DNA of 64,000 nucleotides, taken from NCBI RefSeq assembly GCF_963921235.1, contig NC_086097.1, positions 170,936,001 to 171,000,000 on the forward strand, read 5' to 3'. Of this stretch, positions 16,908 to 64,000 are shown in pieces. The stretch's first letter is position 1. Each line of letters begins with the position of its first letter. This stretch comes from Mobula hypostoma. Its lineage: Eukaryota. The translations under genes were made by a program, and so were the position numbers. Below the pieces are notes generated by a model. It was not told the DNA's origin, made no database searches, and saw only the letters and a list, made by a program, of their open reading frames with translations.

Positions 16908-17763
16908 AGACAAGAGGAATTTTGCAGATACTGGAAATTCAAGCAACACAAAAAGTTGCTGGTAAACGCAGCAGGCCAGGCAGCATCTCTAGGAAGAGGT
17001 ACAGTTGATGTTTCGGGCCGAGAACCTTCGTCAGGACTAACAGAAGGAAGAGTTAGTAAGAGATTTGAAAGTGGGAGGGGGAGGGAGAGATCCAAAATGA
17101 TAGGAGAAGACAGGAGGGGGAGGGATGGAGCCAAGAGCTGGACAGGTGATTGGCAAAGGGGATATGAGAGGATCATGGGACAGGAGGACCAGGGAGAAGG
17201 AAAAGGAGGGGGGGAACCAGAGGATGGGCAATGGGTATAGTCAGAGGGACAGAGGGAGAAAAAGGAGAGTAAGAGAAAGAATGTATGTATAAAAACAAAT
17301 AGCGGATGGGGTATGAGGGGGAGATGGGGCATTAGTGGAAGTTAGAGAAGTCAATGTTCATGCCATCAGGTTGGAGGCTACCCAGACGGAATATAAGGTG
17401 TTGTTCCTCCAACCTGAGTGTGGCTTCATCTTTACAGTAGAGGAGGCCGTGGATAGACATGTCAGAATGGGAATGGGATGTGGACTTAAAATGTGTGGCC
17501 ACTGGGAGATCCTGGTTTATTGCAGAAATGAGTTTGGTGAGGCAGGAGCAAGCTGAGACAATAGGTCTGCCAGGACAGGCAGGTTTGTGGATCTTGGGTA
17601 GGAGGTAGAAACGGGAAGTGCGAGGTGTGGGAACTATAATGTTGGTAGCAGTGGATGGGAGATCCCCTGAGCGGATATTGGCGCTCCCGATGTGGCCTTC
17701 TTTATATTGGCGAGACCTGACGCAGACTGGGAGACCGTTTTGCTGAACACCTACGCTCTGTCT
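16908..17763 (-). mobile_element. Rearranged Penelope-like element: terminal repeat, GIY-YIG C-terminus, RT fragment and an inverted GIY-YIG piece
   Basis: Minus strand: DLPVATHFKSTSHSHSDMSIHGLLYCKDEATLRLEEQHLIFRLGSLQPDGMNIDF (17330-17512) and RFYLLPKIHKPACPGRPIVSAC (about 17530-17670). Plus strand 17680-17763: SRCGLLYIGET*RRLGDRFAEHLRSV. Confidence 0.88.
17002..17039 (-). ncRNA. Minimal type I hammerhead ribozyme motif in the Penelope terminal repeat (CpG-decayed)
   Basis: tagtc-CTGACGA-aggttctcggccc-GAAACATC-aactg. Confidence 0.6.
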
Positions 17764-19884: not shown

Positions 19885-20014
19885 AACAACAGGAATTCTG
19901 CAGATACTGGAAATTCAAGCAACACACATCAAAGTTGTTGGTGAACGCAGCAGGCCAGGCAGCATCTCTAGGAAGAGGTGCAGTCGATGTTTCAGGCCGA
20001 GACCCTTCGTCAGG
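19885..20014 (-). mobile_element. About 130-bp Penelope terminal-repeat insertion with an 11-bp target-site duplication
   Basis: ACCTATCATCA at 19874-19884 and 20015-20025; the interior is near-identical to 16908-17036 and 62628-62765. Confidence 0.85.
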
Positions 20015-20016
20015 AC
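19981..20016 (-). ncRNA. Minimal hammerhead ribozyme motif
   Basis: gtc-CTGACGA-agggtctcggcct-GAAACATC-gactg; stem I GTC/GAC and stem II AGG/CCT. Confidence 0.65.
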
Positions 20017-32229: not shown

Positions 32230-34626
32230 GTCATGTGATGGAAAAGTATAGTGATTATACTCACATTTATACGGATGGTGCAAAGGAACCTGAAACAGGA
32301 GTGACAGGGTTTGGGGTGGTAATACCAGCAAAAGAAATTGGAATCAGCAGAAGAACATCTAATAAGTTAGGGGTGTTTACAGTGGAGATGCTGGCAGTGT
32401 TGGTTGCGTTGCAATGGGTGCAGAAAGCCAGACAAGCCAAAGCATTGATATGTTCAGATTCATCCTCAGTTCTAGCAAGTTTAAGGTCTTTTCACACAAA
32501 CAGTCAGCAAGATGTACTTTATGAAGTCCTTCAGTTAGTTACAATAATTGCAAATCAGGGAGGTCAGGTAAAATTTCTATGGGTTCCAGCACATGTAGGG
32601 GTGAAGGGGTATGAGAGGGTGGATGAGTTGGCAAGGAGGGCGTTAAAGAAAGAAAATGTGGAAATGCACATTAGTATCAGTAAAGCAGAGGTTAAGTGTG
32701 TAATCTAGGAAAAAGTCAACCGAATGTGGCAAGAAAGATAGGACAGGGAGGGGAAAGGGAGGCATTTATATCAAATACAAAAGAGTGTTGCAGTTACTAG
32801 GGTAGGTAATGGAAACAGAAGAGAGGAAATTGTGTGGACTAGGTTAAGGCTGGGGCATTGTGCATTAAACAAAACATTGAAAATGATAGGGAAACACCAG
32901 ACAGGATTGTGTGAGGAATGTCAGGAAGAGGAGTCAGTAGAACATGTAGTTCTGAGTTGCAGGAAATATGGGATACAGAGAGAGATGATGAGAAATAAAT
33001 TAAGGGAGTTGGGGATGCAGGAATTCACATTAAAAGGGTTGCTGGGCATGGGTGAGAGAGCACAAGTCCTGGTATTTTTAGCGTTTTTAAGGAGTACAGG
33101 GGTTTTTTATAGAATATGACGAATAAACAGGAATAGGATGGATGGTCAAAGATGGGAGGGTGGTGTAGGTTTGTATATATATATGTGTGTGTGTGTATAT
33201 ATGTATATGTGCGTGTGTGTGCGTGCGTATGTGTGTGCGTGCGTATGTGTGTGCGTGCGTGTGTGTGTGCGTGCGTATATATGTGTGTGCGTGCGTATAT
33301 ATGTGTGTGTATGTGTATGTATATATATGTATGTGTATGTATATATGTGTATGTGTGTGTGTATGTGTGTGCGTGCGTGTGTGCGTGCGTGTGTGCGTGC
33401 GTGTGTGCGTGCGTGTGTATATATGTATGTGTATATATATGTAGATGTGTATATATGTATGTGTGTGTATATATATGTATATGTGTATATATGTATGTGT
33501 ATGTATATATATGTATGTGTATGTATATGTATGTGTATGTATATGTGTATGTATATGTGTATGTATATGTGTATATATGTATATGTGTATGTATATGTGT
33601 ATATATGTATATGTGTATATGTGTATGTGTGTGTATATATGTATGTGTGTGTATATATGTATATGTATGTGTATGTATATGTGTATATATGTATATGTGT
33701 ATGTATATGTGTATATATGTATATGTGTATATGTGTATGTGTGTGTATATATGTATGTGTGTGTATATATGTATATGTATGTGTGTGTATATGTGTGTGT
33801 ATGTATATGTATGTGTATGTATATGTATGTGTATGTATATGTATGTGTGTGTGTGTATATGTATGTGTGTGTGTGTATATGTATGTGTGTGTGTGTATAT
33901 ATGTGTGTGTATGTGTATATATGTGTGTGTATGTGTATATATGTGTATGTATGTGTGTGTATGTGTATGTATGTGTATGTATGTGTATGTATGTGTATGT
34001 ATGTGTATGTATATGTATGTATGTGTGTGTGTATATGTATATGTGTGTGCGTGCGTATGTGTGTGTGTGCGTGCGTGTGTGCGTGTATGTGTGTGTGCGT
34101 GTATGTGTGTGTGTATATATGTGTGTGTATATGTATGTATGTGTGTGTATATATGTATATGTGTGTATATATGTGTATGTGTGTATATGTATGTGTATGT
34201 GTGTGTATATATGTGTATGTATGTGTATATGTATGTGTATGTATATGTATGTATGTGTATGTATGTGTGTGTGTGTATATGTATGTGTGTGTGTGTATAT
34301 GTATGTGTGTGTGTATATATGTGTGTGTATATGTGTGTGTATGTATGTGTATATATGTATATGTGTATGTATGTGTGTGTATGTATATGTGTGTATATGT
34401 ATGTGTGTGTATATGTGTGTATACGTGTATATGTATGTATACGTGTGTATGTATATATGTATATGTATATATAAAATGTATATGTATGTATATGTGTGCG
34501 CGTGCGCGCGATTGGGTGAAGGGATTTAGAATGTATGTTTAGTGCACATTCTGGAGCAGAGGGTGGCGGTAATGCACCATTAAGCTGGATGCCAACCGCC
34601 GTAAAACAAGATACAGACAGACAGAC
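32230..34626 (+). mobile_element. Nimb/I-clade LINE 3' portion: RNase H, C-terminal zinc knuckle and a 3' UTR with an expanded microsatellite
   Basis: IYTDGAK...EMLAVLVAL...ICSDSSS...FLWVPAHVGVKGYERVDELA (RNase H) and TRLRLGH...CEECQEEESVEHVVLSC. One frame 32235-33119 with two TAG stops. 3' end ggtggcggtaatgcacc...accgccgtaaaac plus an (ACAG)n tail; near-TSD AGACAGTTYAGATC at 32216-32229 and 34627-34640. Confidence 0.88.
33172..34510. repeat. About 1.3-kb compound (TG/TA/CG)n microsatellite
   Basis: Almost uninterrupted alternating pyrimidine-purine sequence. Confidence 0.97.
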
Positions 34627-36202: not shown

Positions 36203-36302
36203 TAGTCCTGACGAAGGGTCTCAGCCTGAAACATCGACTGTACCTCTTCCTAGAGATGCTGCCTGGCCTGCTGCGTTCACTAGCAACTTTGATGTGTGTT
36301 GC
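36203..36302 (+). mobile_element. Short Penelope terminal-repeat copy beginning with the hammerhead motif
   Basis: tagtc-CTGACGA-agggtctcagcct-GAAACATC-gactg (36203-36240) with stem I AGTC/GACT, followed by the family tail. Confidence 0.8.
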
Positions 36303-36581
36303 CTGTAATCCTGTTAGACTCTGTCTGGATTGCCTAGTTTAATTGATTTGGATAAATCAAAGTTGAAACAACACAAGTAGACAAGGCTGGGTTGGGGTGG
36401 GGGGTGGGGGGGACAGTAGAACCATGAAACAATGTTAGTTGTAACCTTGGACTAGGACCAAAAAGAAGGTAACCCAGGTAGGACAGGTGACTTGAGCTAA
36501 TGGTTCAAATGATTATTATCAAAGTATACAACTCAGTTCTCTGGGTAGCAATGAAACTAAGAACAAAAAGAAAGGGAGCTC

Positions 36582-62535: not shown

Positions 62536-62556
62536 AAAGGAACTTGGGAGTCTTTG

Positions 62557-62763
62557 CAACACACATCAAAGTTGCTGGTGAACGCAGCAGGTCAGGCAGC
62601 ATCTGTAGGAAGAGGTGCAGTCGACGTCCTGACGAAGGGTCTCGGCCTGAAACGTCGACTGCACCAGGCACCTCTTCCTACAGATGCTGCCTGGCCTGCT
62701 GCGTTCACCAGCAACTTTGATGTGTGTTGCATGAATTTCCAGCATCTGCAGAATTCCTGTTGT
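62557..62763 (+). mobile_element. Foldback Penelope-derived insertion with a 13-bp TSD
   Basis: TTGGGAGTCTTTG at 62544-62556 and 62764-62776; arm 62556-62627 is the reverse complement of 62652-62730 apart from a 7-nt insertion and one mismatch. Confidence 0.9.
62626..62661 (+). ncRNA. Minimal type I hammerhead ribozyme with intact catalytic core
   Basis: GTC-CTGACGA-AGG-gtctcgg-CCT-GAAACGTC-GAC; predicted cleavage after C62656; palindromic ACGT in place of a closed stem III. Confidence 0.75.
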
Positions 62764-64000
62764 TTGGGAGTCTTTGTGCAGGATACCCTAAAGATTAACT
62801 TGCAGATGGTGAGGAAGGCAAATGCAATGTTGGTATTCATTTCAAGAGGTCGAGAATACAAGAGCAAGGATGTGATGCTGAGCCTTTATAAGACAATGGT
62901 CAGACCATACTTTTGGGCCCCTTATCTAAGAAAAGATATACTGGCATTGGAGAGGTTCCAAAGGAGGTCCAATATAATAATTCCAGGAATGAAAGCGTTG
63001 ATCTATGAGGAGCATTTGATAGTTCTGGGCCTGTATTCAGGAGTTTAGAAGAATGAGGTAGTGGTGGAGGGATATCTCATTGTAACCTATCAAGTACTGA
63101 AAGATCTGGGTAAAATGGATGTGGACCAGAGGGCACAGCCTCAGAACAGAGAGACGTCAATTTAGAGCGGGTTACGAGGAATTTCTTTATTAGAGGGAGA
63201 TGAATCTATAGAATTCATTACAACAGATGGATGTGCAGGTAAAGTCAATGGGTATTTTTAAGGATTTTTGGATAGTTCCTTGATTAATCAGATGATGGGG
63301 AGAAGGCAGGAGAATGAGGTTGGGAAGGATAATAATTTCAGCTATGATGCAATGACGGAGCAGGTACAATTGGATAAATGGCCTAATTCTGCTCTTGTGT
63401 CTTTTGGTCTTATGGTTTTTTTTTTTAACGTTCTTCCAGAAATGAGGGATTCATGGATAGACAGGAGAGGTTGGGAAGAAGTCTGATGTGTATAAGATTG
63501 TCAGGATTAAAGAGAGTCCATAGTGGTAAGATGTTCTGAATGTCCTATGGTTTAAGGACCATGGTGTTTTAATTCAAAGTTTTGGACCAAAAATACAAGC
63601 AGATATGAGGAAAACATTTTTACATCATGTGGCTATGATGTGGAACTCACTGCTTCTAGGAGGGGTGGAAACAATGGTGTGTACTTCAGAGAGAAGTGGA
63701 TAAGTATTTGAAGATTCAAGTACATTTATTATCAAAGAATGTATAAATCATAGAACCCTGAGATTTGCTTGCTCACAGGTAGCCACAAAGCATGAAACCT
63801 GAAAGAACCCAATTAAAGAAAAAAAATAAGTCTAACTCTTGATGCACAAGAAAATTTTAAAAAAGTCATGCAAACAATTGAAGCGATGAAGTGAATTGAA
63901 CAATTCAAGCATTCTGAACAATAATTGAGTCCTCAGATCTGAAACCCAGAGCAGCCCAGAGTAGGCCCAAAGCCTCATTGTTCAGTTCATCACATTAGCT

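What the first reader, a model, noticed from the sequence alone, without database searches (positions are those of the whole stretch)
62544..62776. TSD-flanked hairpin element holding an intact hammerhead core in its loop
Seen: a roughly 207-bp insertion with a 13-bp TSD folds into a near-perfect stem of about 72 bp. Its loop holds CUGACGA, stem II and GAA, and all core nucleotides (CUGACGA, GAAAC, GUC) are unmutated. The inversion junction (cagtcgac|gtcctgacga) lies within 3-5 nt of the predicted cleavage site. Known: Penelope-like elements carry minimal hammerheads with a palindromic stem III that work as dimers, and they often show 5' inversions. Inference: the structure arose by template switching at the ribozyme cut site. 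If transcribed, the RNA could adopt two mutually exclusive folds (long dsRNA hairpin or active ribozyme), acting as a self-inhibited ribozyme or a source of small RNAs against the family.
Basis: partly seen in the sequence, partly recalled or inferred. Interest (0 to 1): 0.8.

Follow-up and report, generated by a model that had tools for sequence, protein, structure and literature searches.

The report
Ordinary two-armed Penelope retroelement insertion
The hairpin is real, but it is one of more than 15,000 similar head-to-head scraps of a Penelope-like jumping gene in this genome, likely made by copying the element's RNA from both cut DNA strands; its short arm runs past the predicted ribozyme cut site instead of stopping there, and the ribozyme motif is predicted to be folded shut.

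Summary
Observation confirmed: a 13-bp target duplication, a 73-pair stem with a 7-nt bulge, and an intact minimal-hammerhead core. It is a head-to-head, 5'-truncated pLTR insertion of a Penelope-like element (PLE). The genome holds at least 15,374 such short pairs, 49 with this exact junction, on different flanks and subfamily backgrounds.
In 171 of 174 pairs one arm carries the long 'tail' end and the other does not, and either arm may reach further in. This fits priming at both target nicks.
About 78% of arms pass the cut. Ends pile up at the hammerhead's 5' edge (39% in 10 nt), not at the cut (6% in 8 nt). A small single-base excess at the cut exists (493 vs 198 and 114).
Helix I is shortened to 3 bp, and the hairpin wins by about 10 kcal/mol. 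Expression was not testable. Inverted pLTRs, tails, minimal hammerheads and siRNA from inverted Penelope copies are published, and this scan noted the edge pile-up before on other DNA of this genome.

The parts
62544..62556 (+). left copy of the 13-bp target-site duplication, inside a decayed CR1-like LINE fragment (LINE label from recall of the translated flank)
62556..62627 (-). inverted arm: PLE pLTR from the short start (about +67) to -3/-5 relative to the predicted cut; no tail
62626..62627 (.). 2-nt overlap (GT) at the junction, shared by both arms
62626..62766 (+). sense arm: PLE pLTR from -31 to the long start (about +103), last 3 nt shared with the TSD
62626..62659 (+). minimal type I hammerhead motif: 3-bp helix I (62626-28 with 62657-59), core 62629-35 and 62649-51, stem II 62636/37-62648, palindromic ACGU 62652-55, predicted cut after 62656
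62666..62672 (+). 7-nt extra in the sense arm (register ambiguous, 62661-62667 also fits); slippage or a locally templated patch
62732..62766 (+). 35-nt PLE 'tail' between the two start sites, present on this arm only
   Evidence: PMC11167929
62764..62776 (+). right copy of the target-site duplication
16910..17762 (-). longer copy of the same family in the window: RT and endonuclease remnants, 300-nt 3' region, hammerhead, tail; links the unit to the PLE reading frame

Best explanation
This is a head-to-head, 5'-truncated insertion of a Penelope-like retroelement, one of thousands here, likely made in one event by twin priming and likely inert. Inferred steps: the element's GIY-YIG endonuclease nicks both target strands about 13 bp apart; one nick primes reverse transcription at the long start (about +103), the other at the short start (about +67), on uncut sense RNA, probably the same molecule or two of one subfamily; the long cDNA stopped at -31, the 5' edge of the hammerhead and the family's commonest stopping zone; the short cDNA stopped at -3 to -5; their 3' ends were joined through 2 shared bases and filled in. 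Shown: the TSD, the two arm ends, the overlap, family membership and copy numbers. The hammerhead is carried along as part of the pLTR. If the locus were transcribed, the hairpin is predicted to dominate and block cleavage.
For: The arms align to the 3' end of a full-length copy with a 964-aa frame, at 94% and 90% (L218, frame). Pfam: GIY-YIG E 9.5e-4 in L218; RVT_1 E 2.5e-5 and GIY-YIG E 6.5e-4 in L219. Inverted pairs by anchor gap: 743, 1934, 3928, 6742, 2027. Exactly one long-tail arm in 171 of 174, none with two. The short-start arm reaches further in 78 of 147 long/short pairs (61 the other way, 8 ties, p=0.40), which a fold-back of one cDNA cannot give. With this exact junction the tail is on the -5 arm in 11 and on the -31 arm in 13 of 24 scored loci; 21 have their own TSD; 18 of 22 scorable have matching arms, on 6 subfamily backgrounds. 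Arms agree at four variable sites in 76 of 100 pairs against about 18 for random pairing. 78% (CI 76-81) of arms pass the cut by 6 nt or more (weighted; raw 244 of 348). In vitro, the Anolis PLE protein cuts and extends both strands, starts at two sites that define the tail, and prefers unprocessed RNA (PMC11167929, parts 1-2 of 4 read).
Against: All Pfam hits are below the curated cut-offs. No intermediate was observed; the mechanism is read from end products. For this one copy a fold-back of the long cDNA gives the same sequence. PMC11167929 saw no difference in start site between strands, so the one-long-one-short rule is not explained by it. GTC occurs at both -3..-1 and -31..-29, so a jump from +1 to -29 on cleaved RNA cannot be excluded for this junction. 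Exact ends at +1 are in excess (493 vs 198 and 114). The 174 loci are the first listed on one contig, and gaps under 31 or over 180 were not searched.
Confidence: 0.8

Rival explanations
1. Template switch at the ribozyme cut: the short cDNA ran off cleaved RNA at +1, jumped across helix I to -29, added 3 nt and was joined to the partner.
For: Exact ends at +1: 493, against 198 at +3 (control pattern 18) and 114 at -2. The repeated GTC makes this path formally possible.
Against: It needs two extra steps, while read-through to -5 plus a 2-nt overlap needs none. No regional excess at +3..-5 (26 of 348 arms; ratio 1.0). 0 of 35 unselected arms in 664 kb end there. By eye about 40 of the first 100 rows at +1 are joins through GTC overlaps. 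No reads began or ended at the cut in Anolis (PMC11167929).
Confidence: 0.08
2. Fold-back (self-priming): one cDNA, primed at the long start, turns at -31, pairs with itself at -5 and copies itself back to +67; or self-priming on an antisense template as proposed in PMC3846280.
For: This copy's geometry allows it (tail on the arm that reaches further). Arms usually match (76 of 100).
Against: It cannot make the 78 of 147 pairs, or the 11 of 24 same-junction loci, where the tail-less arm reaches further. It does not explain why the second arm ends at a fixed start site.
Confidence: 0.08
3. The hairpin is itself a mobile MITE-like unit, and the 49 same-junction copies descend from one master.
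For: Some junctions recur (-35/-28 in 6 of 174, +5/+17 in 5 of 174).
Against: The same junction sits on 6 subfamily backgrounds with arms matching within each copy, and in both tail polarities. The recurrent junctions inspected coincide with short overlaps.
Confidence: 0.02
4. A functional self-inhibited ribozyme or a selected small-RNA locus.
For: The core is unmutated; a transcript would be long dsRNA; inverted Penelope copies give siRNA in flies (PMC3681739, passages).
Against: The copy is young (1 substitution between arms), so an intact core is expected. About 11% of short pairs (21 of 174) share the layout. The ribozyme fold costs 9.6-10.9 kcal/mol and helix I is 3 bp. The site is a decayed LINE.
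Confidence: 0.02

Closest known systems
EN+ Penelope-like element insertion units: pLTR, adjacent inverted 5'-truncated copy, 30-40 bp tail at one end, TSD (PMC8557442 and PMC3846280, passages read)
   Same: Head-to-head inverted pLTR, overlap at the junction, tail on one arm, TSD, parent frame with RT then GIY-YIG.
   Different: Reduced to the two pLTR ends with no reading frame; TSD 13 bp against 8-10 bp in the rotifer examples; at least 15,374 short pairs, enough to measure end positions.
Minimal hammerheads of metazoan PLEs (Cervera and de la Pena 2014, PMC4209133, parts 1-2 of 4 read)
   Same: Core boxes, extra base after A9, palindromic 15.1-16.1, short helix I. That paper already notes pairs of motifs 100-700 bp apart on opposite strands, and low activity that needs dimers.
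   Different: Helix I cut to 3 bp; U at 11.1; the cut site is paired into the hairpin in this copy.
PAc (Poseidon, Anolis) in vitro system (Frangieh 2024, PMC11167929, parts 1-2 of 4 read)
   Same: Two internal RT start sites bounding the tail, both strands cut and extended, uncleaved RNA as the main template.
   Different: It reports no strand difference in start site and does not treat inverted products in the parts read.
L1 twin priming (recalled; no paper read)
   Same: Two target nicks prime two cDNAs that are joined by short overlaps, giving a 5' inversion.
   Different: In L1 the second primer lands upstream, so the arms do not overlap in sequence; here both start within about 35 nt, so the product is a near-palindrome.
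Non-LTR retrozymes (10.64898/2026.07.22.740005, part 1 of 5 read)
   Same: Non-coding, PLE-related, type I hammerhead.
   Different: Retrozymes are tandem repeats with a hammerhead in each unit; this is a single inverted pair.

Membership tests
EN+ Penelope-like element insertion | Parent element encodes RT followed by a C-terminal GIY-YIG endonuclease | tested here: met
   964-aa and 808-aa frames; GIY-YIG E 9.5e-4 and 6.5e-4, RVT_1 E 2.5e-5, all under the curated cut-offs; DKG, YIDD and IGET motifs visible
EN+ Penelope-like element insertion | The unit is the pLTR end, contiguous with that frame | tested here: met
   Hammerhead about 300 nt after the stop in L218-L229 and in the window copy
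EN+ Penelope-like element insertion | Inverted 5'-truncated partner and a 30-40 bp tail at one end | tested here: met
   This copy +67/+103; 171 of 174 pairs have one long end
EN+ Penelope-like element insertion | Target-site duplication | tested here: met
   13 bp, single in paralogous host LINE copies; found in 143 of 174 pairs, 13-15 nt in 102, no chance control run
Neptune clade of PLEs | Zn-finger-like linker between RT and EN, and placement on an RT tree | tested here: inconclusive
   A CxxxxCxxC motif lies in the linker; PMC8557442 gives this motif to both Neptune and Nematis; no tree was built
Minimal type I hammerhead (min-HHR) | CUGANGA, GAA, A15.1-U16.1, H17, palindromic helix III bases, extra base after A9 | tested here: met
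   sequence
Minimal type I hammerhead (min-HHR) | Helix I of 4-5 bp | tested here: not met
   3 bp (-1.9 kcal/mol) in this copy against 5 bp (-4.0) in the full-length copy
Minimal type I hammerhead (min-HHR) | G10.1-C11.1 pair | tested here: not met
   U at 11.1 here and in 120 of 132 scored arms
Minimal type I hammerhead (min-HHR) | Self-cleavage as a dimer | not testable with these tools
   needs an RNA assay
Non-LTR retrozyme | Tandem units, each with a hammerhead | tested here: not met
   single inverted pair
MITE or self-amplifying hairpin | Copies share one internal structure by descent | tested here: not met
   140 junctions in 174 pairs; one junction on 6 backgrounds

The most novel reading that the evidence does not exclude
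The thousands of short hairpins record the unresolved PLE cycle. One protein dimer primes both target nicks on the same uncut RNA, one at each start site, and both cDNAs tend to halt at the 5' edge of the hammerhead because something fixed lies there: a 3' splice-site-like run (branch-like motif, pyrimidines, AG at -47..-31) held by splicing factors, a partner RNA paired to helix I, or the RNA's own 5' end. A minority of ends at +1 would record cleavage in vivo.
Probability: 0.3. Interest if true: 0.55.

Novelty: new member of a known kind. Interest (0 to 1): 0.25.

Why it matters
The single locus matters little. The family statistics bear on an open question, how PLEs make inverted repeats and tails (called undefined in PMC8557442). 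The one-long-one-short rule with no tie to inner reach favours twin priming over self-priming, and the stop zone at the hammerhead's 5' edge gives a precise target for the existing in vitro PLE assay.

Tried and rejected
Rfam scan: no hammerhead model among 22 matches at E<=1; the mir-1791 hit is below its threshold and reflects the hairpin. Pfam on the window's 146-aa remnant gave nothing useful. Expression: no RNA holder listed; the runs laid were contigs of uncertain kind, with no listed piece spanning the locus and no usable ends or splice joints, so this is no evidence either way. Exon-1 test: junction inserts of 4 nt or more showed no shared foreign sequence by eye; 18 of 35 match nearby element sequence, so copying of a spliced RNA is not supported. 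Two-template test: only 3 of 100 pairs differ at two or more variable sites (61 expected at random), so mixed templates are rare (one search used one wrong site). The first reference copy had a CpG change at -3; breakpoints were redone on a CpG-intact copy with the same result. L160 was dropped as a duplicate of L138 (174 of 175 kept); 6 of 30 same-junction loci lacked an anchor and were not scored. Literature searches for a published pile-up of PLE 5' ends at the hammerhead edge, or for twin priming in PLEs, listed no paper on it by title or abstract start (open-access library only). The 2017 paper on dimer cleavage by PLE hammerheads was not held and is recalled only. Supplements were not read; Fig. 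S2 of PMC11167929 may bear on end positions.

Full report
Positions are counted from the predicted cut: +1 is the base after it (62657), -1 is C62656.

Observation. The 13-bp repeat is exact and is a real duplication: the insertion sits in a decayed LINE fragment whose other copies carry the 13-mer or a variant once (34 of 67 hits reach the site). The stem has 73 pairs, one G.U and a 7-nt bulge; z -19.9. The core bases are as stated. The junction leaves only 3 of 5 helix I pairs, and position 11.1 is U, the family majority (120 of 132).

Identity. The window holds several other copies of the unit. One continues upstream through 300 nt into endonuclease and RT remnants. That C-terminus drew 156,785 first-look candidates in the genome, of which 150 were scored. 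Twelve long loci gave frames up to 964 aa with weak Pfam RT and GIY-YIG hits below cut-off and the expected motifs. The finding's arms align to the 3' end of that element. It is a PLE pLTR fragment, Neptune-like by the linker motif only.

How common. The exact junction occurs 49 times. Pairs with both junction ends in the hammerhead zone number 2199; those with an intact core in the loop and a partner ending within 14 nt of the anchor number 828. With anchors at +41..+52, the gap bins hold 743 (31-60), 1934 (61-90), 3928 (91-120), 6742 (121-150) and 2027 (151-180), 15,374 in all. Flat arm ends would give a steady rise to about 4824 in the last bin. Two arms ending at the cut would give a gap of 80, which is not the peak.

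Where arms end. I mapped both inner ends in 174 loci, the first 15-50 listed per bin on contig C1, weighted by bin count (redone on a CpG-intact copy). 5.9% end at +3..-5 (CI 3.9-7.9; density 1.0 times the flanks, CI 0.64-1.51). 39.5% end at -26..-35 (CI 35-44). 78% pass -6. Raw counts are 26, 120 and 244 of 348 arms. There are 140 different junctions: 67 with an overlap of 2 nt or more, 34 with 0-1, 73 with inserts. As an unselected check, 60 evenly spaced 10-kb stretches plus the window (664 kb) held 35 other arms at 84% identity or more: 12 end at -21..-41, 3 at +36, +12 and -7, 20 further upstream (-93 to -1979, two cut by the stretch edge), none at +3..-5. Several of the 12 are simple copies without a partner, so the pile-up is not a product of inversion. 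Against my reading: whole-genome exact-end counts give 493 at +1, 198 at +3 (control 18) and 114 at -2. I ran these after an earlier scan note claimed such an excess. By eye about 40 of the first 100 rows at +1 are joins through GTC overlaps, so part of the excess is microhomology; a small true excess remains possible. This copy's arm does not end at +1.

Mechanism. Outer ends fall in two groups, near +65 and near +102, about 35 nt apart: the published tail. 171 of 174 pairs have exactly one long end, none two. The tail does not predict which arm reaches further (61 vs 78 of 147, p=0.40). For this junction the tail is on either arm (11 vs 13 of 24), on 6 backgrounds with matching arms in 18 of 22. 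So each hairpin formed anew, and a single folded-back cDNA cannot make them all. Twin priming fits and agrees with the in vitro results for the Anolis element (PMC11167929, parts 1-2 of 4 read). Arms agree far above random pairing (76 vs about 18 of 100), pointing to one RNA or one active subfamily at a time. Why cDNAs stop near -30 is open. A branch-like motif, pyrimidine run and AG lie at -47..-31 in this family, and a pyrimidine run with AG lies just before helix I in the few older-family copies printed. In D. virilis the intron end maps to the 5' end of helix I (PMC4209133, parts 1-2 of 4 read). No splice joint or exon sequence was found here, so this is a lead only.

Function of this copy. 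The hairpin pairs the cut-site bases with probability near 1; helix I has about 1e-4; a ribozyme-compatible fold costs 9.6-10.9 kcal/mol. Expression could not be tested. siRNA from inverted Penelope copies is published (PMC3681739, passages).

Known versus new. Inverted pLTRs, one-sided tails and TSDs (PMC8557442 and PMC3846280, passages), minimal hammerheads and opposite-strand pairs (PMC4209133) are known. The searches named under Tried and rejected showed no paper on the edge pile-up or on twin priming in PLEs. Earlier notes of this scan report the pile-up on other DNA of this genome; they are not independent support. Verdict: a real, ordinary member of a known kind, interest 0.25, carried by the family statistics and not by this locus.

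Noticed in passing
L218:5890-5908; window 17037-17055 (-): Branch-point-like motif, pyrimidine run and two AGs directly 5' of helix I; a pyrimidine run with AG also in older families. In the window copy the first AG is changed. It coincides with the stop zone of cDNA ends.
   Followed up: partly
window 16910-17762 (-): Rearranged family copy: an endonuclease piece in the opposite orientation, an RT piece and the endonuclease end joined by an internal deletion.
   Followed up: partly
window 19886-20016 (-) and 36203-36305 (+): Simple copies of the same family that begin at -31 and -33, with no inverted partner seen.
   Followed up: partly
G000:C2:52447961-52980683: Ten copies of one identical junction type within 530 kb, probably a tandem segmental array.
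   Followed up: no
rows: Many arms read from +1 straight into -26 or -29 onward in the same direction, as if the hammerhead body were skipped between GTC repeats (17 of the first 100 rows for the -26 form, by eye).
   Followed up: no
L222, L228, L229, L253, L259, L274: Long head-to-head pairs with arms of 0.4-3.2 kb; the same layout extends far into the reading frame.
   Followed up: partly
window 33163-34582: Long AT/GT-type simple repeat that draws sub-threshold miRNA model hits.
   Followed up: no
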